Shown here: positions 25,396 to 48,968 of the stretch, in pieces
Layout: every line of letters begins with the position of its first letter
How positions within the stretch are numbered: the first letter of the stretch is position 1
Notes under the pieces: model-generated
Told to the model about the DNA's origin: nothing
The model's database searches: none
The model's input: only the letters and a program-made list of their open reading frames with translations
NCBI GenBank assembly: GCA_000002445.1
Contig: CM000208.1
Span: forward strand, 3,456,001 to 3,520,000
Reading direction: 5' to 3'
Origin: Trypanosoma brucei
Lineage: Eukaryota
Length of the DNA: 64,000 nucleotides
Position numbers and translations under genes: made by a program

Positions 25396-26541
25396 TTACT
25401 TCCCTTCTGAAGTTCCACCGTTATTCTTATTTTTCGCAGCACCTTCTTTTCTACTTTCCTCCGTGGCGGCCTCCTTCGCCTTGTGCTGTTCGTTTCCTAA
25501 CTTTTCCTTTAGTGACCGCTCCCGCCGCGCTCTCACTTCCTGTATTTCGCGAGCTATGCGCCGTCGGTTAGCAATAACGTCGTAGAGAGTGCAGACACAT
25601 CGCCCAATGGCGGCGATGAACATTGCAATCGCCTGATCATTTGCATGCCGCACCATGTCAGTTGATGTCTTCAAGTGATAAATGTGCGGCTGCAGGCTGA
25701 TAACTTCCTGCAAGACACTCAAAACATCCTCTGAGATGGGCATGGTACCCTCTGCAACGTCATTAAGATACTCCTCAATTGACTGCAGAACACGACCGAG
25801 GTGGTCAAGTGAAAGCTCACGCTCCTGGACCTGGGCGGAAAGTGTTGTGATGGTGGAATCGGTAAGGTCCCGCAAGAGATGTTCAATACCGATTTCCTCC
25901 GCCTCTTCCGCGCCGAGATGTGTGGGGATGTTGCGAAACTCCAACGATCGCGCCCCGTCTCGGCCATGCACCGTCGTATAAGCCAGCACGGGCACACCTT
26001 TGTTGTTAGGATCTGTATTCACAATGCAGTACACCGGATTCAGCGAGAAGCGATCTGCAATAAGGAGGTGCAAGAGCATGTCATTCGGCTGCACCGCGCA
26101 CGAGGGACCTGCAGAATACCACCCAACAATCCGCACCTTGGGGTGTACGCGACGAAACATTAGGAACATTTCCTCTGCATAGTTTGTATCGAGAAACCAG
26201 ACATCAGGATTCTGAGGGTCCTCATCAAACGGAACAGCGAAACTGTTGTTGATGTCAAGCACTTGTATTCCACCAGGGTGGCTGAGGTGACGGCCGAGAA
26301 GAAGCCCAGCGACACGCCGCTTTTGTGACACTTTTGCGTTAACACGGGCGTAGTGGTCGACAAGTGAGAGCAAAACAAGTGGGTGAACCTCTACTCGTGC
26401 CCCCGCAGGAGTAAATACCGGAACATCTTTTCCACCATCACGTTCCGCGTCGCCGTCGTCCCCATTGACGGATGTGTCCTGTTGGTCCACTTCAGGATTG
26501 AGTACCGCAGGTTGCGGTTCCTTGGGGTCATCATTGGCCAT
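25396..26541 (-). CDS. RPN8: 26S proteasome regulatory subunit Rpn8 (PSMD7, MPN/Mov34 domain), 381 aa
   Basis: ATG at 26541. VHPLVLLSLVDHYARV, NSFAVPFDEDP, RIVGWYSAGP and AEEAEEIGIEHLLRDL are near-identical to remembered Rpn8/PSMD7 MPN-domain blocks. There is a lysine-rich C-terminal tail. Confidence 0.88.
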   Translation of the reverse strand: MANDDPKEPQPAVLNPEVDQQDTSVNGDDGDAERDGGKDVPVFTPAGARVEVHPLVLLSLVDHYARVNAKVSQKRRVAGLLLGRHLSHPGGIQVLDINNSFAVPFDEDPQNPDVWFLDTNYAEEMFLMFRRVHPKVRIVGWYSAGPSCAVQPNDMLLHLLIADRFSLNPVYCIVNTDPNNKGVPVLAYTTVHGRDGARSLEFRNIPTHLGAEEAEEIGIEHLLRDLTDSTITTLSAQVQERELSLDHLGRVLQSIEEYLNDVAEGTMPISEDVLSVLQEVISLQPHIYHLKTSTDMVRHANDQAIAMFIAAIGRCVCTLYDVIANRRRIAREIQEVRARRERSLKEKLGNEQHKAKEAATEESRKEGAAKNKNNGGTSEGK

Positions 26542-26785
26542 TAGCTATAAGAGTATAGTATATGGGAAACCAAATAACAACAACAACGATGACGACTACG
26601 ACGACTAAAAGTGAAACACAGTCCTCACAAAAATAACAGTGCAAGTTCACCGCTCTCCTTTTGTTCCCTCACTAACCTAACTTCTGATCACTATTTTCCC
26701 CTCGCTCCCTTCCTTCCTTCTTTTTTTTTTTCAATGCGTCTCTCTGGCTCCTACTATTGATCCACACTCCGCAATCGAAGCGGTA

Positions 26786-26920
26786 GCAATGAATGAATGA
26801 ATGAAGGAGGGGAGAGGGGAGGGGGGTCGACAAAGAGAGGAAATCCGCAAGTAAAAAATATAAAAAAAAAAGAAAGGAGAAGAGAGGAGAGAAATAGATA
26901 AACAAGAAGGCAAAACCACA
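26786..26920 (-). promoter_or_regulatory. Candidate polypyrimidine tract and AG trans-splice acceptor region for Rpn8 (polypurine on the plus strand)
   Basis: The plus strand here is G/A-rich (gaatgaatgaaggaggggagaggggagg...aaaaaaaaaagaaaggagaagagaggagag), so the minus strand is pyrimidine-rich. It lies about 250 nt upstream of the Rpn8 ATG with AG dinucleotides following. Confidence 0.3.
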
Positions 26921-28629
26921 AAATTTTGAGCAACACAGCACCAAGTACAGCCAGTAATTAGCCAACAAAAAAAAACACAAACAAAATTGGGCAGTCAGTC
27001 GAAAGAAAAGAAAATAAATAAATAGAGTGTTCCCGGTGAGACACACTGCGATTTTCTCTTTTTTTAACCCATCAGATTTTTTTTGGGGGGGGAGTAGGGA
27101 CTCATTGTTTGTGATGGATGAGGGTTTTTTTTTTTATTTGTCACCCATACGCTACTTCATTTTTCTCTCAAAACCAAAAAAAAAAAAGAAATTTTCTCCC
27201 GATTTTTTTTCTTACTCCCTCCCTCTCGCACGCTTTTGGTATCGAATTTACTTTTAAGTGTACAAAAAAACCCAGACGCTTCATCTGCGACTCGAGCAAA
27301 CGGGGAAAGGGAGAAAAATTGAGTAAAAAGAAAAATAAGAAAGAAAATAACAATAATAACAATGACGATGATGATGATGATAACGATAATGGTAGGCAAC
27401 TATACTATAAAGAGACGAAACGGCAGCAGCAGGAAAAAAAAAAAGGCATGAACCATCCCTCAATTCCTTTCACTCACTCATTCATTTATTTATTCATTCT
27501 CACCCTCATCCTCCACACCCTTCTCTCCCCCTCTGTAAAAACATGCCTCCTCCTCCCTTATGTTCTCCTTCTTTCTTTCTTTCCTTCTTATTTTTTAAAA
27601 AAAATTTTCATCATGAAAAAAAAAAAACAAAGAAAGGAGTAGGAACAGTGGATAGATTTGAAGAAGAGAAAAGACAAAAAGAAAGAGAAAGAGAACAACT
27701 ACACGGTATGTGAAAAGAGTTGAAGATAAAATATTTGCATGGCATCTTGAAGTTGAAATGATCCCAAAGTTTGATGGCATAAGGGATCGCGAGCTGTACA
27801 CAAACACACATATTTTGCATGCATTTGCCTTTGTGTATTTTCCCCCATGCCTGCGCAAGTAATGGCTGAGGCAACTGTAACGATTATTATAATGGGATAA
27901 TGGCAACCCGATACGGTAACACACAGGCACACACACACACAAAAAAAAAAATAATAATAATAGTACTAATAATGTGCTCGCCGCATTATTCTCTTTTTCC
28001 TTTTTTTTTTCCTCTCCCGTTTAGGAACGGTGTGTGTTTCTCGTTCCATCATCTAATAATCGCATCTTTCCCAAAGTTTTTTTTTTCATTTTATCCTTCT
28101 TTTTCTTCACTCTCTCCTCCTTCCTCTGAAGAAACCTCCTCATTCACACAAAACCATCAACGCAAACAAAAGCACAAAATAGACAATAATCACACACCAC
28201 AAGAGAACAACAATAAATGTAATTTGTAGCATTGACGAACGCGCCTTTTTCTTTTTCTTTCTTTCTGTTTTTTTTTCCCCCTCCCCCTCTCATTATTTTA
28301 TTTGGTGTTATGCTGTTGCTGTTGCTGTTGCTGTTGTTGTTGTTTTCCTTCTCTTGACAGCTCCTTCGCCTTCCCTCCCAATGCCATCGTTCCGTGCCTT
28401 CTCATTACCCCTCATCATCATCATCATTATCATTACTATCACATAGAAACCCATATATAATTTCCAGCCAAAAAGAAAAAGAAAAAAGAAAGATTCTCCC
28501 CTTCCCCCCTGATCCTAAAAAAGAAAAAAGAAATTCCTTTTGATGTTTTCTTTTTCTTTCTTCTGCCCCACCACTTTTCATTTCCTTTTTTTTTTAAATT
28601 CGCGTTCTCCTCCTCCGGTCGCATGAATG

Positions 28630-28641
28630 CATATATATATG

Positions 28642-28672
<31 letters not shown>
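28630..28672. repeat. (TA)n microsatellite
   Basis: Direct read: atatatatatgtatatataatatatatatatatatatatata. Confidence 0.8.
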
Positions 28673-31047
28673 CATACATAATCTGTTTAATTTATTTTTT
28701 TTATTTTGCCTATTCCTTTTCTCTTTACCAACTTTGAAAAATATTGTAAAAGAAAAAAAAAAGAAAAAAGGTACAAAGCTGAAGACATACTTTGCTAAAC
28801 AGGTGTTCACCGCTTCGACACTCACCTTTTGCTTATGTTCTCATTTTTTCCTTCCATCCCTTCCTCATTTCTTTTTGTCTTTTTTTTTTCTTTTCTTCCT
28901 TTTCCCTTTCTTTATGCATTTCATATGATAAATAGAAATAAATAAGCATATGAATACGAATACGAATAAATAAACAATCTTTCTTCTTCCTTTCTGCCCA
29001 AACACTGAGTTGTTTACCTCATCTTGTTTGCGTTGCTTTCACACGCCCTTTTCTTTTCCTCTTTTCTCTTATTTTCTTTTTCCCATTTTCGCTTGATGAG
29101 AAAACAAATATCGACGACAACAAAAGAAAAAAAAATTGTGCTCTTTTCTCTTCTCTTCCCTTCACCTTCTTTTTTTTTTCTTTTCTTTCTTTCCTTCACT
29201 TGTACTGTTCAGGAAGTCATTCATTTTCACACCTTATGATTATCTCTTTCACCACGTGCAGATATGTACTAATAACCAAAGTAATAAAGACAATAACATG
29301 AAGCATATGATCGAGTAATGCGCCTCGGTTTTCCCCTTTCTTGCGCTTCTTTAATATATTTTTTTATGTTTTTTTTTTCCTCCTCCTCTTCCTGATCTCC
29401 ATTTTTTTTTTCTTTTTTTCCTTTTTCCTTTTTTCCTTTTTTTTTTTAACTTCCATTTTCATGAATCAGGCAATTGCGAAGAGAAATAATGAAAGAGAAA
29501 CACACAAACACACAAGGAAAGGGATAAACAAAAAAAACGAAAAAAAAAAAGAAGACAACAAAGTGAAACAGAAAAGAAAAAAGAAAAAAAAGGACAAGTG
29601 CAGATTTCATAATCTCAGTGGGTAAAAAAAAAAAAACTTTACCATTTCATCTCCCTTTTTCTGTTCCGACTTTTTCTTTTCATCCTGATTAGAACACAAA
29701 ACGTAAAAAGATATTAACTGTAGACGAAACAATATGAGAAAAAAAGAAAGAAAGAAAAAGGAAGAAAAAAAAAAGAGAAAAGGGATAAAACTTACATTTT
29801 GAAGAAAACAAAACATAGAAAGAGAAAAAAAAAAGAAACGAAAACAAGAAAAAAAAAAGAAGAGCTATGGCACATTCTTGTTTGTTTATTTGTTTGTGTG
29901 TGCGCTAAATCAATAACAAAACACAATAAAAGTGTTTCCACCACTTCAATCAACAGGCGAAAGGGAGACAGATGAGGGGAAAATATTTTAAAAAAAAAAC
30001 AAGGACAGAGAAGGAAAGGGAGCGAGGCAAAAAGAAAAAAAAAGACAAACAAACAATAATCAATCATTACAAGTCGTATTAACAATAATAAAAAGGTGAC
30101 ACCATTACTAATAAGTAATAATCATCATAATAATCTTAGTAGTAACAATAAAACATTAATACTAACAACAACAACATTAAACAATAGCAATAACAACAAC
30201 AATAATGATAATGATAATAACAATAACCATAGAAAACGTACTGTTACAAATTCATTTTCTCCCCTCCTCCCTTCCTTCTTCCTTCTCCATTGGTATCATT
30301 TGAAAAACAAATTGGAAGAGGAAAAAGAAAAATAAAAAGGGAAAACATATTGCGGTTGTTTCATTACTTCTGTCTATGTGCACCTTTTCCAAATCCCTTC
30401 AAACAAACATATTCTTCCGTTATTCTTTTGAGAATTGTCCCTTTTATTTGCCGTTTTCTTTACTTATTTCCCTTTCACTCCGTGTTTTACATTTCATATT
30501 ATTTTATTTTTATTTTTATTTTTTGCTTCATTACTTTTTTCTTTTTCTCTTCCTTCATTCTGTCCCGTTTTTTTTTTTGACAATTTTACAAAAAAAAAGA
30601 AAAAAAGAAAAAGTTTTCCTACATTGTCCCTTCTTCGTTTCTCCATTCGTTAACTCCAAGCCCTTTTCCTTCCCTTTTTTTGTTTGTTTTTCTCCCGCCG
30701 TGTCCCACAACATCTTCTTTTGTTTCTTCCACCGCGCTCCCCTCCTCTACAAAATATTTGTTATAAATCGTTGCATAAACAAAAACAAAACAACAAAAAA
30801 CAAACAAACAAACAACAACAACCAAAGAAAAAAAAGAAAGAAAAATGATTTTCCTCACACCATTCATCTCCCCTCATCAGCCCACCTCTCGCCTAAACAA
30901 AAAAAAAAACAGTAAAGTCATAAAATATCAACAACAGTAACAATAGTAGAAGTAATAGTAGAAGTAATAATAGAAGTAATAATAATAATAATGAGAGTAA
31001 TAATAGTACTAACAATATTAACACTGATATTTCTTAATAATAAAAAA

Positions 31048-31080
<33 letters not shown>
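31048..31080. repeat. (GAT)11 microsatellite
   Basis: Direct read: gatgatgatgatgatgatgatgatgatgatgat, flanked by (AGT/AAT)-rich repeats. Confidence 0.85.
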
Positions 31081-32489
31081 AATGATATATATATAAATAA
31101 AAAAAGAAGACAATAGTGGTAGTAGTAGTAATAATAACAATAACGAAATGATACGAGAGAAGTTACAAAATGCACCATTTTTTTTTTTAATCCCTTATTT
31201 CATTTTCATTTACTTGTGCATGAATACACATATATCCATATATTCATCCATGAATAAATAAATACCTAAACACATTCTTATGTTTAAATATAAATAAATA
31301 TATAAACACATGATTATACAAATATATATGTATATATAAATATAAGACGCGCACCTGCGTAGTTCACTTCATCTTTTTTTTTCTTAATTTCCCTCCTTTT
31401 CTTTCTCTTCTTCCTGTGTTTTTTGGTGCCGCTGATTTCATTTTAGTTTTAATTTTTGTTTCGTTAAATTGATCACTTCATTTGCAGCTGTTGAACCTAC
31501 GAACAAAATTTAAAAAAGCGCTAGCAATCGGAGCCTTCTTCGTCGTTGGGTGCTGATGTTATTTTGAATGAATGAATGAAAGAAAGAAAGAAGGGTAACT
31601 TATTTCATTTTATATTATATTATATTAATTTTGTATGAATTTATTCTACTTTGCATTACTTGCTTTTCTCTCTCTCTTTTTTCTTTCTCTTCTCTCTTTG
31701 TTGATCCATGCATGCATTTCTATTCTTTTCGCTTCATTTCCCCTCATCTTCATAACCATCATATTTACACCAAAACATATTTTTTTTCTTTTCTTTTTTA
31801 TTTTTCCTCGCTCTCATTAAATTCCATCACTAAACTTTCTCTCACCCCCATTCCCCTAATTGCGTTATTTCCGCAATCCCCATGAAGTCGCGGTCGCACA
31901 CTATCCTAAAAATATAAATATCTGTTATACATATACATATATATATATTTATATTTATTTATTTTTTTAAATACTCTGTTTTATTTCGTTTCCTTTTCTT
32001 TTTGTTCTTGTTGTTGTTATTGCTGTTGTCGCTTGTTTTGTTTCTTTTTAATTATTATTATTATTATTTTTTTTTCTTTTTACGTCCTCGTTTTCATTCA
32101 TTTTATTAACTTTCTTTGTTTTTATTTTTATTTTTTTCTTTTTAAAATACCGTTTCATTTTAGGAACTTCTCCTCTCTTATTTTATACCATATCATCGTT
32201 ATATCACCACCACCATTGCCATCGTATTATTATTATTATTATCATCATCATCATCATCAATATTGTTACCCCCTCCTGTTTGTTCGAGTACAAAAAGCAG
32301 AGAGATACAAACCAAACAACAACAACAAGGAAAAATAATAATAATAATAATAAAAAAACAAAAGATGGAAAAAAGGGGGAAAAACAAAAAAACAGAAGAA
32401 GAAAAAAACGAACACGTATTTAAAAACTTACAAGTAAAAGAGAAAAAGAGTAAAGAGAAAACGAAAAATAAGAAGCGGGAGAAATGAGA

Positions 32490-32558
32490 TTTATTTGATT
32501 CCTCATGTGGACTCCCTTCCCTGGTAGATGCAGGAATCCACATGAGGAATCAAATAAA
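32490..32558. repeat. Perfect 22-bp inverted repeat (stem-loop with a 25-nt loop)
   Basis: Left arm tttatttgattcctcatgtgga at 32490..32511. Right arm tccacatgaggaatcaaataaa at 32537..32558. The two arms are exact reverse complements, and the loop is ctcccttccctggtagatgcaggaa. Confidence 0.8.
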
Positions 32559-33232
32559 ACATATAAAAATCAAAACAATACAAAAAAAACAAAAAAAAGG
32601 AGGAGGTCGCAGAGGCGAAGCGACGTGCTGAAGAGTGTACTGAAAACAAATGAAAGGAACAAAAAAAAAAGGCAAAAAAAAAGAGAGAGGGGTGTTGAGA
32701 CCATTGAATGTTTTTGATTGCCAGCAAAGCGATAAAAACAAAAATAAAAGTAAAAAAAAACTATTCTACCGAAGGAGGGGGGAAGAAGGCTTTTTTTAAA
32801 AGGACAAACAAGGGGAATAGGGAAGAAATGAACAAAAAGCAAAAAAAAAAAACACCGCTATCGGAAGTGAGTCATAACACTACGCACGCTATATATATAT
32901 ATATATATATGCGCCTCTTTTTATACGGGTGTGCGCGTGCGCTTTCCTTTTTTTTTCTTTCTTTCTCCTCTTCATTCCTAAATATTTATTAGTTCGTGTG
33001 GCATCGAGTGAAATCCGTCGTTGCGTGCGGGGTCGCTAAAAAAAAAAAAACAAAAACAGAAAAGGGTAAAGGGTAAAAACTGTCAACCTCCATTATTCTT
33101 TTTCTTTTCCCTAATTATTTTACCTTCAATTTTATTTTGGCTCCTCTTCTTTTTTTTTAATTTCATTATTTCCTTTTACACCAAACACATTTACACTCCT
33201 TTTTCTTTTTATAAATATACTGCCGTTCTCAC

Positions 33233-33236
<4 letters not shown>

Positions 33237-33270
<34 letters not shown>
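33237..33270. repeat. (TA)n microsatellite
   Basis: Direct read: tatatatatatatatatatatatatatata followed by tttatataaatatatataaataaatat. Confidence 0.8.
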
Positions 33271-33276
<6 letters not shown>

Positions 33277-36200
33277 AATATATATAAATAAATATTTCTT
33301 TCTCTCACTGTACCTCTACCCTTTTAAACATTTCCCAACAACCACTGGGCTCAATAGAAAAAAAAAAAGTGACAACAACGGTATTATCACCGTGAAAAAG
33401 AGAAAGAAAAAGATATGGTAAAAAAAAACATAAATACAAATATAAATAGAAAGAAGGTGGGGAATAATTTAAAAAAAAACTGAAAGAAAAAAAGAAAAAA
33501 ACAAGGGGAAAGAAGTCAAATCCAAAAGACGTTAACGGTGAAATAACACAAATTGGAAGAAAAGATAAAAATGAAGATAAATGGGACTTTTATAATTTAA
33601 TAAAAGAAAAAAAACAACAAAGGAGACATTTTATTTTGCTTCACCGGCTTTCTTTTCTTTTTCCTGCTTTCATGGGAGAAGGAAGGACGAAGGAAAGAGA
33701 AACTTTACAAAAAAAAAAAAGAAACGAAAACGAAAAATTAAAAAAAACAAAAAAAAACAAAAAGCAAAAGGGAATGGAAAAAGTGACACCAGGCGACAAA
33801 GTGGAAAATGAGAAGAAGATAAAAGACAAAAAAACAGAAGGGAGAAGAGGAGGGGAACAAAAAGCAAAAACGTAATATCGCTCGAATAAAAATAAAAATA
33901 GAAACATAATTTTTTTTAAAAAAAAGAAGAGAGTCAACAAAGAGAAAAGTAGAAAAACAAAAAGTTAACAAAAACAAAAAAAATCATAGCGTGGACCCCA
34001 AGGGAAACTATTCTGTACTGTGCTTTTATTCATTTGGTTCACTTTCCTCCCTTGTCAAAGCGTCACCATAACGGTGACAACAAACGGTAGAACGCGATAA
34101 TAATAATAATAATAATAACAGTAATAATAATAATAATTGAACTCATATTTTAGTGCACGCGTGCGTGTGAGTGCAGGTTTAGGTTTGTGTACGCGTGAAC
34201 ACTTATTAATATTATATTTTAAAGGGTTGTTATTATTATCGTTGGTGTTAATATCGTTAGCATTATCATCATTATTATTAGGATCGAAGGAGCAAAACAA
34301 AAATATTTCGAAACATCAACAACAACAAAAAAAAAAAGGGAACTCTGGATAGGACCACGGGAGTTTAAACGGGGAGGATGGAAAAAAAACAAAAATAAAG
34401 AAGAAAAAGAGAGAAAACGGTGGATCTAGTGGAAATGGATGCCAAATAAACAAACAAATATATATATATATTGGTAATGGTATTGATATTGATATTGATA
34501 TATTGATATATTTAATAAAATGGAAAAAGCAAATAACAAGAAAGAGCAAAAGTGAAGACTATCAGACAACAACGACAACAAATGAAAGAATGAAATAAAA
34601 TCAAAAACTATAAAATTTTTAAAAAATTAAAAAAAGGAACTACAGAGACTTATGTGACGAATGAAGGAGCGAAGTGGGCGAACAGGAGCAGCATTAGCTG
34701 GCATACACACATACACATATGTTAATATGTAAATATGTAAATATATAAATTAAATACTAACCTAATATATAAACATATATGTACTTACCGGCACGTAAGC
34801 GTAGACATAGTTCCCTCACGCCCACAGCCCCTACTTCAAACATAAACATATATCCGTAGCACATATAATATTATATTTATATATACAAACATACATATAT
34901 ACGAAATAAGGTCATCCATCACCACTTCCATCAATATCTTTTTTTCTTTTCTTTTCTTATTTCATTGTGCTTTTGAGTTTCTCTCCCCCTCGCTTTTTTT
35001 TTCTTTTTTAACCTTTTGATTTGTTCGTTTGTTTCTCATTCTTTTTTTTTTCCTCCTACTCCCCCCCCCCTCTCCCTTTTTCCCGTAGTAAAGATTATTA
35101 TTATTATTATTTCTTTTTTTTTCCTCTCCCTCTCTCTCTCTCTTCACAGAAAATACAGTAAGGCACACATCTCCCCACTCACAGCACTAAACACAAAAGA
35201 GAGATTTTTCCTTTTTTTTTTGTTTTTTTGTAAAAGGAAAAAAAATGTACATACCAAAAACTAAAACAAAAAGAACAATAATAAAGAAAAAGTGAACGAA
35301 AACGAAAACAATGAGCGACAAGCGTAAACTTAATAAATAAAAAAAATGAAAAAAAATGAAAAATGAAAAAACAGACAAAAACCTCTTCGTGTTATTCCCC
35401 GTCCTCAGACCTCATTCTCATCATCTCACCACACAAATTTTCGCCACTTAAACGCCAGCTGTACTTTCGCCCCCTCCCCCCCCCCCAAAGAAAAAAATAT
35501 AAATATAAATATAAATAAAAATATTAATATTAATATTAACTTCGCGGTGTCACAAACTTCCCTTCTTCCTTTTCTCTCCTTTTCGTATCGAATACCTTCG
35601 CACAAACACACACATATAAATACATATAAAAAAAACGAAAAAAAAAAAATATATATATATATGTATATTTCGTACACGGTGGCATCCCTACTACAAATAT
35701 TTGAGAAGAACAAAACAAGAAAAAAACCTTTGTGTATTCCTCTTTTTTCCTTCTTGGTTATTTTAATTTTTTTAAAAAAAAATTATTTATTTATCGATCT
35801 CTGCATTGTCTTCACCGAATCGCGCACGCTTCATTCTTTTCCTTTGAAATCATTTTAAAAAAAAAACTCGAAATTGTTTCGTATGCGCTTGCGGGCTCTC
35901 ACGCCCCTCCCCCCAAACAGAGAAACCAACTAAAGTTTAAAACAAATGACAATAGTTTCTGTGCATATTTTCCCTCTCCTTAACAAGTACAAGAAAAAAC
36001 AAAAAAAAAAAAAGAAAAGCACACATTCACACACTTTGGTCGCCGCAAATGTGATTTCCATCCCCTTCGTTCTCCTTCCTTTCCCCCTTCTCTCCTTTTC
36101 TATCTTGGAAAAAAAAAATAATAATAAAACAAAATAAAGTAAAATAAAGTAAACAGTTTAATTATCTTCCCCCTTTTCACCCCACACACCCACACCGCAC

Positions 36201-37510
36201 GCACGCACGAACGTAAATTTTTATGCGTTGAGACTCTTCCTTTTCTTTCTTTATTTCTTTACTAATTTATTCATCTCTTGAGTGTTTTGTCATAGTTTTA
36301 TCATTATTTTTTTTTTTTTGCGTCTCCTTCCTTGATGCCGCTCAGCCGCTACACATGCCTTTTCTCGCCTTCCCTTCGTTTCTCTTCGGTGTTTTCTTTT
36401 TGCTTTCCTCCTTCTTCTTTTTCCCCCCTTTTTTCTCTCTTTTCTTTTTCTTGTTTTAGTTTTAATTTTAGTTTTAGTTCTATTTTTATTATTGTTGTTG
36501 CTTTCCCCTTGTTTTGCTCCTCCATTTCCTTCATTCCTTCCCTTGTTTTAATGTTGCGGTTTTTTGTTCTGTTCTCTCCTTCAATGCTTCTTCCTTCTCC
36601 GAAATCGTGTTCGGTACGGGTTCAGATGAGAAGTCACACACACACACAAAAAAAAAAAAAAGAGATTCGGCCTCCTCCCGCTCCCCCTTTAGGTTCCAAA
36701 AAAAAAAAAAAAGAGGCGTAACAGCACTCACAGCACTGTTTCTCCATGTTTCTTTTCCTTCTTCTTCTTTCTTCCTCTTCTTTTGTTCGTTTAACATCAA
36801 TGATATGTTTCGGTGAAAAGATAAAACGAACTGTAGAAGAAAATGGGAGAAGGAGGAAGACCGATGCAGTGGCACACCATCTGCCAAAAGCGCATCTTTC
36901 TTCTGCTCTTCTTTTCTTTTTATTTCTATTCCTTCTCCTTCCTTTCCCATTTTAGTCACTTCCCCTTCACCTTCCCATAACGCCACACGCCACATGCCGT
37001 CCAAAGACAGTTTGGTGACGGTAGAAAAGGTTTTTTTTTCCCCATCCCACCACTTTAAATACCCCTCAAACATAAATAAATAAATTTATATTTATATATA
37101 TATATATATACTTTTTTTTTCGTTTCTCTGTGCGCGAGCGGCTCCACGGCTGACGGTCAAGAATTTCTGAAACTCTGCTCCCTTCCCCTCCCTTCCCTTC
37201 CTCCTTCAGTAACAACACAAAAAGACGCTCCCTCGTCCTCCTCTAAGCGGAAGAGGAGTTCTGGGGTGAAACGAACTTCGAAACAAGAAAAAAAAAAAGG
37301 TCTCGCAACACTCCCCACCTCCTAACCAATAAACACACACTTACAATCATTCCGCTACCAACCAACTCACTATCCTATACCTACGTGTTGAACTGCACGG
37401 AGCACAATTTATCTTTCCAGTCACGCAAAGACAAAAAGGAAGCGTCAAACCTCAGCGTCACTTTCTTCCACAAAGTGTAGTTCTGCAGCCGTTAACACTT
37501 TCACACACAC

Positions 37511-39367
37511 TTACATGGTGGGGCCTCCTCCTCCTCCTCCAAACATCCCGCGCATATTTCCTCCCGATGCTCCAAATCCCCCGCTGCCGAAACCGCCACC
37601 ACCGCCACCACCACCGCCGCCGCGACCACCGCCCATTCCAAAACCACCGCTGTTGCCGCCACGCCCGAAAACGTTGCTCATTCCAAAACCACCGCTGTTG
37701 CCACCCCGACCGCCGCGATAACCACCGCCACCACCGCCGCCACCGCGACCACCGCCCATTCCAAAACCACCGCTGTTGCCACCACGCCCGAAACCGCGAT
37801 AACCGCCGCCACCACCTCCGCGGTTATTGTTGTTGTTATTATTGTTGGGGCGCTTGGCCAGTGCACGAACTTCAGGAGAAATGACCTGATTGGTCTCATT
37901 GAGAAGTGGAATGAGATCATCCACAATGTTGCGGTTCTTCTCGTTAAAAAATGAAATGGCGACGCCCACTTTGCCAGCACGGCCTGTGCGGCCGATGCGA
38001 TGCACGTAATCGTCAATATTGCTCGGCATGTCATATTGGATCACAACCCCGACATTGGGGATGTCGAGTCCGCGAGAAGCTACGTCTGTTGCGACAAGAA
38101 CTTGACAAGCGCCTGACTTAAACAGCCTGAGAGCCTCTTCGCGCTCACGCTGCACACGATCGCCGTGGATAGAAACGCACGCCAACTCGCTATTGCGCAG
38201 GAAACGCTCCAAATAATCGGCATCACGCTTCTTTTCGACAAAAACGAGAACAAGCTTGCCTTCATTTTCACGAAGTAACGTGAGTAGCGCCTGACGCTTG
38301 TCCGGGTCCTCAATCCAGCGAACGTCCTGAGTGATATTCTCCGTTGTGGAGCCCACGCGTCCAACCTGAAGGAACGAGTGGCGGCACATAAACTCCCTGG
38401 CGAGCCGCTGAATCTCAACGGGAAAAGTGGCAGAATAGAGCAGAGTTTGGCGCTGACCTGCCCTTGGCATATCACTGTCTGGACCTTGAACAATCATCCG
38501 AATTTGCGGTTCAAATCCCATATCCAGCATTCGATCAGCTTCATCCAATATCAGGAAGCGGATTTCAGAGAAGCGGACGTATCCACGAGAGAACATATCC
38601 ATAAGTCGTCCAGGGGTCGCAACAAGCAATTTACACCCGCGGGAGAGCTCATGTACCTGGTGGCGTGGATCAGCACCGCCATAGACGACTACACAGCGGA
38701 CAGGCGTATGGTAGGTGAACTTGCGGGCTTCTCCATAGATCTGAAGGGAAAGCTCCCTCGTTGGTGCAAGGATAAGGGCTTGGGGGCTGGAGTGGCTGCC
38801 CGGGCTGTACGGAGGGCGGTTCGAAATATTCAACAGTATCTCGTTGATAGCAGGAATAAGGTACGAAGCTGTTTTCCCCGAACCAGTTTGTGCACACGCC
38901 ATAAGATCCCGATGATTGAGCGCTGTTGGAATACCCAAGCTCTGCACAGGCGTTGGCTTGGTGTACCCACAGCGTTTCACATTTTCCAGCAGCACCGGAA
39001 CCATGTTCATTTCACTGAACGATAACACTGGCGCAATGTCGTTTGGCGTGATAGTCATATTCACCTCTCCGTGTTGGTCAAAGTTGATGCCCGGAGTGTG
39101 ATCCTTAAATATGTCCTCATCGGCTGGCTCCTCACGGTGGTAGCCATGGCCGGAGGTTTCCCCTTGGTACGGCACGTTGCGACGGATAAATTCGCCACGA
39201 CCACGGGAGGGGCCATCAAAACCTTCGCGCGGCCTTTGCTGATAACCACCATAGTTGTTGTACCCAACCTGGTGGCCGGCTTCGCCAAATGCTGGGGCGC
39301 GTGCCCACGGGTTGGCGTTGGGGTTGAACTGCTGATGGCCGCCCTGGCCGAAATTCATGCCGTGCAT
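37511..39367 (-). CDS. HEL67: DDX3/Ded1-family DEAD-box RNA helicase (trypanosomatid HEL67-like) with a C-terminal Gly/Arg-rich tail
   Basis: Motifs Q (TKPTPVQ), I (AQTGSGKT), Ia (PTRELS), DEAD (LDEADRMLDMGF), SAT and HRIGRTGRAG are present. The track ORF begins at TTG 39568 with a hydrophobic, pyrimidine-tract-derived extension. I place the start at ATG 39367..39365 (MHGMNFGQGG), directly downstream of a PPT-like stretch. Confidence 0.85.
   Translation of the reverse strand: MHGMNFGQGGHQQFNPNANPWARAPAFGEAGHQVGYNNYGGYQQRPREGFDGPSRGRGEFIRRNVPYQGETSGHGYHREEPADEDIFKDHTPGINFDQHGEVNMTITPNDIAPVLSFSEMNMVPVLLENVKRCGYTKPTPVQSLGIPTALNHRDLMACAQTGSGKTASYLIPAINEILLNISNRPPYSPGSHSSPQALILAPTRELSLQIYGEARKFTYHTPVRCVVVYGGADPRHQVHELSRGCKLLVATPGRLMDMFSRGYVRFSEIRFLILDEADRMLDMGFEPQIRMIVQGPDSDMPRAGQRQTLLYSATFPVEIQRLAREFMCRHSFLQVGRVGSTTENITQDVRWIEDPDKRQALLTLLRENEGKLVLVFVEKKRDADYLERFLRNSELACVSIHGDRVQREREEALRLFKSGACQVLVATDVASRGLDIPNVGVVIQYDMPSNIDDYVHRIGRTGRAGKVGVAISFFNEKNRNIVDDLIPLLNETNQVISPEVRALAKRPNNNNNNNNRGGGGGGYRGFGRGGNSGGFGMGGGRGGGGGGGGYRGGRGGNSGGFGMSNVFGRGGNSGGFGMGGGRGGGGGGGGGGFGSGGFGASGGNMRGMFGGGGGGPTM
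37560..37860. repeat. Internal tandem repeats encoding the RGG/GGFGM tail of the helicase
   Basis: The core cattccaaaaccaccgctgttgcc[g/a]cc[a/c]cgcccgaaa occurs three times on the plus strand, which gives GRGGNSGGFGM three times on the minus strand. Long (ccgccacc)n Gly-codon runs separate the copies. Confidence 0.7.
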
Positions 39368-47685: not shown

Positions 47686-48486
47686 TTAAGCAGCCACCAT
47701 CTTCCTTCCCATAGAGAGGAACTCGGAGTGCTCGTCGGTGGGGTCGCGCGACACCTCCGTCTCCGCCCAGAGGTCGGGGGTAAGGAAGCCGTATGTCTTG
47801 CGCAGTGCATAGAATGTGGCCATGATGAAATTACCACGCGTACGCGTCTTACCACATGAGCTAGTATATACGTCCTCAACGCCGGCAAACTCAAGAATCT
47901 TCTTCGGCACAGGCGCAGCAACGATACCAGCACCACGTGGAGCAGGGATCAAGCGAACGGCAACGGAGCCGCACTTCCCGGTTACCTTGATAGGGATTGT
48001 ATGCGGTTCACCGATCTTGTTACCCCAGTAGCCACGGCGCACAGGCACAATACTCAGCTTCGCAGCGATCATTGACGCACGGATGGCCAGGGACACCTCC
48101 TTGCCGACGCGGGCGCCGACACCAATGTGGCCGTTACCGTCACCAACAACATTGAAGGCCTTGAAGCGTGTGCGCTGTCCGGCAGACGTTGCCTTCTGCA
48201 CGGGGAAAACAAGCATCATCTCATCACGGAGGTCGCCTTCGCGGATCAGTTGGTCCACGATCTGATGCTCTTTGATGGGCATCGAGAAGAGGAAGATTTC
48301 CTCCAGCGAGGTGATCTTTTGATCCTTCACAAGGCGGCCAAGTTTTGTGCATGGCACCCATTCCTTCTCATCACCACCACCGCCACGACCGCCACGACCA
48401 CCGCGACCGCCGCGACCGCCACGTCCGCCACGGCCACGACCGAAGCCGCGCTGCTCGCCACCTGTACCGCGTGGTGCGTCAGCCAT
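47686..48486 (-). CDS. RPS2: 40S ribosomal protein S2 (uS5) with an N-terminal (GRG)n tract, 266 aa
   Basis: ATG at 48486. N-terminal [16 protein letters not shown], followed by a conserved S5 domain ([31 protein letters not shown]...[15 protein letters not shown]...[38 protein letters not shown]). Confidence 0.92.
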
Positions 48487-48968
48487 TCTCGGTTCAACTA
48501 TGACAGCTTATCGTTTCAAATAACGGAGGAAAAAGCAATAAAAAGAGCAAAGACAAATTTTTTAAAAAAAAAACGAAAGAAGGTGCTGCAGTGATCAAGG
48601 GAAAGGGAACCTCAAAAAGGGAATGAAGTACGCCGACGCCCACAGACAAACATACGTAGTCAAAAATTAATCAGAACGCCTTCTAATCGCAGAGATCGCT
48701 CGGTGAAAGCCACCCGAGTAGCTAGCAGCATGCTAGAAGATATTGTACATCTGTCTCCCCGCGAAAGGGAAAAAAAAACATACAAATAAACATATATACA
48801 CGCTATAATACAGTTCCTTCGACCTCGTCTATTCCCCTGAACTCTATTACCACTACAGTTCCACTCTCTCAATTTTTCCAACACTTAATTTGTGATAATG
48901 AAAAAGTTGGGGAACCCTAACTTCAGGAATATATATGTATGAGTATTTTCACCGGCGTGCCCTCACTC

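What the first reader, a model, noticed from the sequence alone, without database searches (positions are those of the whole stretch)
32490..32558. Perfect 22-bp stem / 25-nt loop hairpin, isolated in the low-complexity tract
tttatttgattcctcatgtgga at 32490-32511 is the exact reverse complement of tccacatgaggaatcaaataaa at 32537-32558. A 22/22 stem is very unlikely by chance and sits in otherwise simple sequence. In an RNAi-competent trypanosome such a hairpin could be a Dicer substrate, giving an siRNA or miRNA-like locus. It could also be a structured ncRNA, a processing or termination signal, or a cruciform-forming site in DNA.
Basis: seen in the sequence. Interest (0 to 1): 0.5.

Follow-up and report, generated by a model that had tools for sequence, protein, structure and literature searches.

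The report
Lone perfect hairpin in trypanosome spacer
A real, far-beyond-chance 22-bp perfect inverted repeat sits in an 11-kb gene-free spacer on Trypanosoma brucei chromosome 10, but it looks most like a recent copying accident (an inverted mini-duplication) and nothing shows it to be a small-RNA gene or regulatory signal.

Summary
Bases 32490-32511 and 32537-32558 are exact reverse complements (22/22) with a 25-nt spacer. This is the longest local inverted repeat in the window; chance expectation is 1e-6 or less. It is the most stable local fold in AT-rich sequence.

The window is Trypanosoma brucei-group chromosome 10. The hairpin lies about 5 kb downstream of the DDX3-type helicase HEL67 and about 6 kb upstream of RPN8. 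Both genes are on the minus strand, separated by an 11-kb ORF-free low-complexity gap.

It is single-copy in the window. It is present with identical arms in four Trypanozoon assemblies, but their flanks are equally conserved. It was not found in the T. vivax or T. melophagium sequence I could reach.

The left arm is a pyrimidine-rich island in a 73% purine tract. That fits an inverted copy made by template switching.

No Rfam family is reached. There is no target-site duplication. Published Argonaute-bound small-RNA surveys list no locus in this part of chromosome 10 and report no miRNAs.

Best reading: a neutral, lineage-restricted inverted duplication that is passively transcribed and forms a 27-bp RNA stem on the minus strand. 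The Dicer-substrate reading is not excluded but unsupported. Interest is low.

The parts
32490..32511 (.). Left arm of the inverted repeat (TTTATTTGATTCCTCATGTGGA). It is T- and pyrimidine-rich against an A- and purine-rich context, so it is probably the inverted copy.
   Evidence: exact match; 11 T in 22 nt against a tract mean of 3.1. The block 32490-32524 has 25/35 pyrimidines, the highest of all 35-mers in the 581-nt tract (mean 9.2).
32512..32536 (.). 25-nt spacer or loop (CTCCCTTCCCTGGTAGATGCAGGAA). Its outer 5 nt on each side add T-A, C-G, C-G plus two G-U pairs in the minus-strand RNA. It carries the only polymorphism seen, a CA deletion in T. b. equiperdum IVM-t1.
32537..32558 (.). 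Right arm (TCCACATGAGGAATCAAATAAA). It is A-rich like its surroundings, so it is probably the template copy.
32290..32860 (-). About 570-nt U/C-rich tract on the minus (gene-sense) strand in which the hairpin is embedded. It ends at the first AG near 32276, after which the minus strand turns purine-rich. It looks like a polypyrimidine and splice-acceptor region, but this is inferred and not mapped.
   Evidence: minus-strand read; skew profile; 73% purine on the + strand.
26542..37510 (-). 11-kb ORF-free, low-complexity intergenic gap between the HEL67/DDX3-type helicase (37511-39358, stop at 37511) and RPN8 (25396-26541, ATG at 26541). Both genes are on the minus strand. This is the context of the hairpin.
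   Evidence: Assemblies break or carry N-gaps here.

Best explanation
The hairpin is a young, lineage-restricted inverted mini-duplication (a quasi-palindrome made perfect) in fast-evolving non-coding DNA of the T. brucei group. During replication or repair synthesis, a 3' end most likely switched template to the nearby complementary or nascent strand. This could be intramolecular 'snap-back' or fork template switching, as in microhomology-mediated repair. The end copied about 22 nt of the A-rich sequence now at 32537-32558 in reverse orientation and then rejoined. That left the T-rich left arm 25 nt away from its template. The element has no dedicated function. Because it lies inside the minus-strand polycistronic transcription unit, downstream of HEL67 and upstream of RPN8, it is passively transcribed. 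In the precursor, or in a long 3'UTR or non-coding RNA, it would fold into a very stable 27-bp stem-loop. What is shown: the existence, uniqueness and stability of the repeat, the strand-composition asymmetry of its arms, its presence across Trypanozoon, and the absence of any family match. What is inferred: the template-switch mechanism, transcription of the minus strand, and neutrality.
For: 1. The repeat is perfect and far beyond chance, yet single-copy in the window. A one-off mutational event fits that better than a repeated element or gene family.
2. The left arm plus adjacent loop (32490-32524) is the most pyrimidine-rich 35-mer in a 581-nt tract that is 73% purine. The right arm matches the context. 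This is the expected footprint when a local sequence is re-copied in inverted orientation.
3. The copy lies only 25 nt from its template, and a 3-bp complementarity (TCC/GGA) sits next to the arms. That is compatible with microhomology-primed switching.
4. Arms are identical in four Trypanozoon assemblies, but the +/-300-nt flanks are equally conserved, with differences mostly in homopolymer lengths. No extra constraint is visible. The single change is an indel in the loop.
5. There is no counterpart, and no comparable complex hairpin, in the homologous gap of T. melophagium or in the 2.35 kb available downstream of the T. vivax helicase.
6. No Rfam family reaches threshold and no tRNA is present. 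No siRNA locus is reported for this part of chromosome 10, and no miRNAs are reported in T. brucei (PMC3447711, PMC3683921).
Against: No outgroup that aligns across this spacer and lacks the left arm was available, so the ancestral state is unknown and the template-switch event is not demonstrated. The nucleotide immediately next to the arms is a mismatch (C-A on the + strand, G-U on the minus strand), so the microhomology junction is not clean. The pyrimidine-rich island extends 13 nt beyond the perfect arm into the loop, which a single 22-nt switch does not explain. The minus strand, which is the strand expected to be transcribed, folds better than the plus strand through two G-U pairs. The one polymorphism seen, in L002, strengthens the helix to -47.6 kcal/mol. 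Both are weak hints of RNA-level selection. Neutrality is an absence-of-evidence argument, because the four genomes are too close to show constraint.
Confidence: 0.6

Rival explanations
1. It is a cis-acting RNA stem-loop. The 27-bp minus-strand hairpin would be a functional element of a very long HEL67 3'UTR or of an unannotated non-coding RNA. It could act as a protein-binding or stability element, or as a structure that positions polyadenylation or trans-splicing in the adjacent polypyrimidine tract.
For: The minus (sense) strand gives the better fold: -44.5 against -37.0 kcal/mol, with two G-U pairs that would be C-A on the other strand. It is the strongest AT-rich local structure in 64 kb. 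It sits about 215-285 nt upstream of the first AG after a roughly 570-nt U/C-rich tract, the zone where trypanosome polyadenylation and trans-splicing are coupled (established knowledge of coupled processing). The only variant seen keeps and slightly strengthens the helix. A long ORF-free gap after this helicase is also present in T. melophagium, about 7 kb.
Against: No transcript ends could be mapped here. No homologous hairpin exists in T. melophagium or in the T. vivax sequence available. There is no covariation, because the arms are invariant among near-identical genomes. There is no Rfam match. Perfect 22-bp complementarity is typical of recent duplication rather than of old selected RNA helices, which accumulate G-U pairs and bulges.
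Confidence: 0.17
2. It is a Dicer substrate. The hairpin RNA would be cleaved by TbDCL1 or TbDCL2 into one duplex of about 23-25 nt that loads into TbAGO1, making it an miRNA-like or hairpin-siRNA locus.
For: The organism is RNAi-competent. The minus-strand helix of 27 bp is just long enough for one T. brucei-size siRNA of 22-25 nt (PMC3447711). Generic miRNA-precursor covariance models give E-values of 3e-6 and 2e-5.
Against: Those Rfam hits are far below the gathering score (38 against 95 bits) and are equal on both strands, so they reflect shape only. TbAGO1-IP sequencing lists seven long inverted repeats (422 bp to 10 kb), convergent units and 15 miscellaneous loci. None of these is on chromosome 10 beyond 3.19 Mb, and the authors state that no miRNAs were revealed. 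A second survey of slender and procyclic forms found no typical miRNAs. Known trypanosome Dicer sources are long dsRNAs. There is no conservation outside Trypanozoon.
Confidence: 0.05
3. It is a remnant or miniature of a mobile element with terminal inverted repeats (a MITE or foldback element).
For: It has two perfect 22-bp terminal inverted repeats around a short core.
Against: It is single-copy in the 64-kb window and, apart from the orthologous site, in the other loci fetched. No target-site duplication is visible: the flanks are ...AAATGAGA and ACATATAA.... At 69 bp it is shorter than typical MITEs. From general knowledge, trypanosomatid genomes are described as carrying retroposons (ingi/RIME, SLACS, VIPER, SIDER) but no class II DNA transposons.
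Confidence: 0.03
4. It is a DNA-level signal: a cruciform or hairpin-forming site that marks a replication origin, a transcription termination or re-initiation boundary, or a fragile site within the 11-kb gap.
For: The single-stranded DNA hairpin is stable (-24.3 kcal/mol, z -9.1). The hairpin sits in an unusually long gene-free gap between two same-strand genes, and this gap is long in T. melophagium too. Such gaps could be head-to-tail transcription-unit boundaries. Strand composition flips about 220 nt away, near 32270.
Against: A 25-nt spacer strongly disfavours cruciform extrusion from duplex DNA (general knowledge). No chromatin, base J or origin data could be tied to this site. No equivalent palindrome exists in the T. 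melophagium gap apart from (TA)n. I know of no described trypanosome boundary element that is a unique palindrome.
Confidence: 0.05

Closest known systems
Quasi-palindrome or template-switch mutations and 'snap-back' templated insertions of microhomology-mediated (polymerase-theta-type) end joining
   Same: A short inverted copy lies a few tens of nucleotides from its template. Complementarity is perfect over the copied stretch. One arm has the 'wrong' strand composition. Short complementarity sits next to the switch point. The event is single-copy in non-coding DNA.
   Different: The event itself is not observed. No ancestral allele without the copy was found. The junction has a mismatch. The composition island is 13 nt longer than the perfect arm.
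Long inverted repeats that produce TbAGO1-bound siRNAs in T. brucei (IR1-IR7 of Tschudi et al. 2012, PMC3447711)
   Same: Same organism, near-perfect arm identity, and potential to form fold-back RNA.
   Different: Those arms are 422-10,011 bp and give abundant siRNAs. This one is 22 bp (27 bp as RNA), is not among the listed loci, and could give at most one siRNA duplex.
Animal and plant miRNA precursors, including palindromic ones such as Rfam mir-3910
   Same: A roughly 70-nt stem-loop with a stem of about 22 bp or more. It gets a sub-threshold covariance-model match.
   Different: The score is 38 against a gathering score of 95. Both strands match equally. No miRNAs have been found in T. 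brucei small-RNA surveys. Real precursors usually carry bulges and are conserved.
MITEs and foldback transposons
   Same: Terminal inverted repeats flank a short core.
   Different: Not repeated in the sequence available here, no target-site duplication, too short, and the host lineage has no known DNA transposons.

Membership tests
miRNA-like / hairpin-siRNA locus | Stem-loop precursor with at least about 21 bp of duplex | tested here: met
   22 bp perfect; 27 bp on the minus-strand RNA including two G-U pairs.
miRNA-like / hairpin-siRNA locus | Discrete 22-25-nt Dicer-dependent, Argonaute-bound small RNAs from the arms | not testable with these tools
   Reads cannot be mapped here. Published lists (PMC3447711 Tables 2-3 and Additional files 3 and 5) show no locus on chromosome 10 beyond 3.19 Mb and report no miRNAs. 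PMC3683921 agrees.
miRNA-like / hairpin-siRNA locus | Match to a curated precursor family at its gathering score | tested here: not met
   Best hit is mir-3910 at 37.9 bits against 95, with equal hits on both strands. There were no hits at the gathering threshold.
miRNA-like / hairpin-siRNA locus | Conservation of the hairpin beyond flank level in related species | tested here: inconclusive
   Arms are identical in four Trypanozoon genomes, but the flanks are equally conserved. It is absent from the T. melophagium gap and from 2.35 kb of T. vivax.
MITE / foldback transposon | Terminal inverted repeats | tested here: met
   22/22 arms.
MITE / foldback transposon | Target-site duplication flanking the repeats | tested here: not met
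   The flanks GAAATGAGA and ACATATAAA share no direct repeat.
MITE / foldback transposon | Multiple dispersed copies in the genome | tested here: inconclusive
   There is a single copy in 64 kb, and only the orthologous site appears in the other loci. The whole genome was not searchable. An ORF-based protein search found nothing.
Template-switch inverted duplication (quasi-palindrome) | Inverted copy close to its template | tested here: met
   25-nt spacing.
Template-switch inverted duplication (quasi-palindrome) | One arm carries the opposite-strand composition of its surroundings | tested here: met
   The left block has 25/35 pyrimidines in a 73% purine tract, the top-ranked of 547 windows. 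The right arm matches the context.
Template-switch inverted duplication (quasi-palindrome) | Microhomology at the switch junction | tested here: inconclusive
   3 bp (TCC/GGA) lie next to the arms but are separated from them by one mismatched position.
Template-switch inverted duplication (quasi-palindrome) | An ancestral or outgroup allele lacking the inverted copy | not testable with these tools
   All four reachable Trypanozoon assemblies carry it. More distant species do not align in this spacer.

The most novel reading that the evidence does not exclude
The minus-strand 27-bp hairpin is a genuine Dicer-processed precursor that yields one AGO1-loaded small RNA of about 23-25 nt. It would be the first miRNA-like, single-hairpin small-RNA gene in Trypanosoma brucei, born recently by inverted duplication in an intergenic spacer. 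It could have been missed by published surveys because of low abundance or stage-specific expression.
Probability: 0.04. Interest if true: 0.7.

Novelty: new member of a known kind. Interest (0 to 1): 0.2.

Why it matters
If it is what it appears to be, it matters little. It would be one more example of how template switching creates perfect hairpins in non-coding DNA, and a reminder that a statistically striking palindrome need not be a gene. It has some practical value as a marker of a hard-to-assemble 11-kb spacer on T. brucei chromosome 10, and as a natural test case for one question. T. brucei has active Dicers, so a stable 27-bp hairpin inside a Pol II polycistron is either processed or ignored, and existing small-RNA data can decide which. 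Processing would bear on the long-standing question of whether kinetoplastids can evolve miRNA-like genes.

Tried and rejected
1. Rfam at gathering threshold over the whole window and a tRNA scan found nothing. In E-value mode only shape-level miRNA hits appeared.
2. A search for further copies of the arm with up to 3 mismatches, and a word-7 BLAST of 32400-32650 against the window, found only the element itself.
3. Exact-protein look-ups failed for two helicase starts, the TREU927 660-aa form and the 114-aa ORF overlapping the hairpin; none is on record.
4. A homology search with that ORF, as a proxy for other genomic copies, gave no hit.
5. T. congolense has a helicase orthologue in the protein set but no contig, so the nearest outgroup could not be examined.
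6. The T. vivax contig ends 2.35 kb after the helicase. The T. melophagium gap has only (TA)n palindromes and low-complexity similarity.
7. I tried to anchor the window to Tb927_10_v5.1 coordinates, so as to test whether the nanopore lncRNA cluster at 3,616,215-3,619,154 (PMC10048164 Table S5) lies in this gap. I scanned offsets for AG/polypyrimidine signatures. No consistent offset emerged, and the attempt was abandoned.
8. Logan contigs carrying RPN8 are about 1.5 kb, stop at low complexity and carry no spliced leader, so they say nothing about transcripts over the hairpin.
9. Literature searches by gene ID for chromatin or transcript data at this locus returned nothing site-specific.
10. 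A search for a second template for the loop's pyrimidine block CTCCCTTCCCTGG found only chance-level matches.
11. A large-scale palindrome spanning the gap was rejected, because self-BLAST of 26500-37600 shows only the hairpin.
12. An assembly artefact was rejected, because four independent assemblies of different strains carry the repeat.

Full report
**1. Observation.**
The sequence read shows tttatttgattcctcatgtgga at 32490-32511 and tccacatgaggaatcaaataaa at 32537-32558. These are exact reverse complements, separated by the 25-nt spacer ctcccttccctggtagatgcaggaa. A pattern search allowing three mismatches finds only these two sites in 64 kb, against 0.00 expected from shuffles.

A full scan for perfect local inverted repeats with loops up to 60 nt ranks this stem first at 22 bp. 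All other stems of 12 bp or more are (TA)n or homopolymer pairings, and the next complex-sequence stem is 11 bp. The expected number of such stems in 64 kb is 1.6e-7 to 1.9e-9, depending on the composition used. Block shuffles that keep local composition give longest stems of 7-14 bp.

Folding energies:
- + strand RNA: -37.0 kcal/mol, z -6.1.
- - strand RNA: -44.5 kcal/mol, z -7.1. Five extra pairs (U-A, C-G, C-G and two G-U) extend the helix to 27 bp.
- Single-stranded DNA: -24.3 kcal/mol, z -9.1.

In a sliding 90-nt fold of both strands of the window, the minus-strand hairpin is second overall. The only better window is 77% GC. Among windows with GC of 0.42 or less it is best by 15 kcal/mol.

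**2. Where it is.**
The 381-aa ORF at 25396-26541 (-) is identical to proteasome regulatory subunit RPN8 of T. b. brucei TREU927 and T. equiperdum. The ORF at 37511-39358 (-) is the DDX3/Ded1-type DEAD-box helicase (HEL67), 100% identical to the T. b. gambiense protein. The TREU927 annotation is the same ORF started 45 codons upstream.

Nearly all long ORFs in the window are on the minus strand. Between the two genes lie 11 kb (26542-37510) with no credible ORF, 25-37% GC, and alternating purine-rich and pyrimidine-rich low-complexity blocks. The hairpin is 4.95 kb downstream of the helicase stop codon and 5.95 kb upstream of the RPN8 start codon.

The gap is hard to assemble:
- T. b. gambiense DAL972 has a 100-N gap replacing window 27135-32140.
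- Two T. equiperdum OVI contigs both end near window 29.85 kb.
- The T. vivax contig ends 2.35 kb after the helicase.

T. melophagium also has a gap of about 7 kb with no called genes after the helicase.

**3. Copies and conservation.**
The element is single-copy in the window. It is present at the orthologous site with identical arms in four assemblies: the window, T. b. gambiense DAL972 (L003), T. equiperdum OVI (L004) and T. b. equiperdum IVM-t1 (L002). The only difference is a 2-nt CA deletion in the loop of L002. That deletion turns a U-G pair into C-G and lowers the energy to -47.6 kcal/mol.

The +/-300-nt flanks are just as conserved, with differences mostly in homopolymer lengths. These genomes are therefore too close to reveal constraint. 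Neither a sequence homologue nor any comparable complex hairpin is found in the T. melophagium gap or the available T. vivax sequence. T. congolense could not be reached.

**4. Anatomy that points to origin.**
The hairpin lies in a 581-nt tract (32280-32860) that is 73% purine and 53% A on the + strand. The right arm is A-rich like this context. The left arm has 11 T in 22 nt against a tract mean of 3.1. The 35-nt block 32490-32524 has 25 pyrimidines, the maximum of all 547 windows (mean 9.2).

So the left arm looks like local sequence re-copied in inverted orientation, 25 nt from its template. This is the footprint of intramolecular or fork template switching, or of 'snap-back' synthesis in microhomology-mediated repair. 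That mechanism comes from general knowledge and was not observed here. A 3-bp complementarity adjoins the arms, but one mismatch separates it from them. The composition island also overshoots the perfect arm by 13 nt, and no second template was found for that stretch. The mechanism is plausible but not proven.

**5. Tests of functional readings.**
- *Dicer substrate.* Only sub-threshold, strand-symmetric Rfam hits to palindromic miRNA precursors were found: 37.9 and 35.1 bits against a gathering score of 95. The TbAGO1-IP study catalogues retroposons, CIR147 repeats, seven long inverted repeats (422 bp to 10 kb), 50 convergent units and 15 miscellaneous loci. Nothing is listed on chromosome 10 beyond 3.19 Mb, whereas this locus lies at about 3.44 Mb in the T. 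b. gambiense chromosome and 3.56 Mb in the T. b. equiperdum chromosome. The authors state that no miRNAs were revealed. A second survey of slender and procyclic forms reached the same conclusion. This is indirect, because I could not map reads.
- *Mobile element.* There is no target-site duplication and no second copy in the sequence available, and the lineage is known for retroposons only.
- *RNA cis-element.* The sense (minus) strand folds better. The hairpin sits inside a roughly 570-nt U/C-rich tract, 215-285 nt upstream of the first AG (near 32276), after which the strand turns purine-rich. That layout resembles a polyadenylation and trans-splicing zone. No transcript ends could be tied to the window, and there is no covariation.
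- *DNA signal.* The long same-strand gap could be a transcription-unit boundary or an origin, but I could not link any chromatin data to it. A 25-nt spacer also disfavours cruciform extrusion.

**6. Verdict.**
The feature is real, exceptional by chance statistics and structurally very stable. It is also single-copy, restricted to one shallow clade as far as can be seen, unmatched in curated RNA families, and marked by the compositional scar of an inverted duplication.

The best-supported explanation is a neutral template-switch product that is passively transcribed (confidence about 0.6). A functional RNA stem-loop comes second (about 0.17). The Dicer-substrate, DNA-signal and mobile-element readings are each at or below 0.05. 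This is a new example of a known kind of mutational product, and interest is low unless small-RNA mapping shows processing.

Noticed in passing
window 26542-37510: There is an 11-kb ORF-free, low-complexity gap between two same-strand genes (HEL67 helicase and RPN8), which is unusually long for T. brucei. T. melophagium has a gap of about 7 kb with no called genes at the same place (L006 11939-18971). The gap breaks or holds N-gaps in three short-read assemblies. It could be a very long 3'UTR, a lncRNA cluster or a head-to-tail transcription-unit boundary.
   Followed up: partly
L003 16844-17194 (+), equal to window 32199-32543 (-): The gene calls returned for the T. b. gambiense DAL972 record include a 116-aa ORF whose start codon lies inside the hairpin. 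The product is F/L/S-rich low complexity, has no Pfam hit and no homologues, and is almost certainly spurious.
   Followed up: partly
window ~32270: Strand composition flips sharply here. The + strand is T/C-rich from about 31200 to 32270, then A/G-rich from 32280 to 32860. (ATT)n/(AAT)n and (ATC)n/(GAT)n tracts face each other across the switch (inverted-repeat pairs I6 and I14). The hairpin lies about 220 nt from this switch.
   Followed up: no
window 48386-48475 (-): This is the most stable 90-nt local fold in the whole window (-50.8 kcal/mol, 77% GC). It lies where ORFs 47686-48486 (-) and 48127-48594 (+) overlap.
   Followed up: no
window 37511-37900 (-), and proteins P0001, P0121 and P0122: The glycine-rich RGG/GGF repeat tail of the helicase differs in length between assemblies and annotations (515, 616 and 660 aa). 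Exact-sequence look-ups failed for several start choices.
   Followed up: partly
Tb927_10_v5.1:3,616,215-3,619,154 (-), from PMC10048164 Table S5: Nanopore direct RNA sequencing reports four novel minus-strand lncRNA isoforms in a 3-kb stretch of chromosome 10, in the general region where this locus should lie. I could not anchor the window to v5.1 coordinates, so overlap with the gap is unknown.
   Followed up: partly
window 32890-32912, 33238-33270 and 31924-31962: (TA)n and (TATA-rich) microsatellites flank the hairpin region. They account for all the other long 'palindromes' in the scan.
   Followed up: yes
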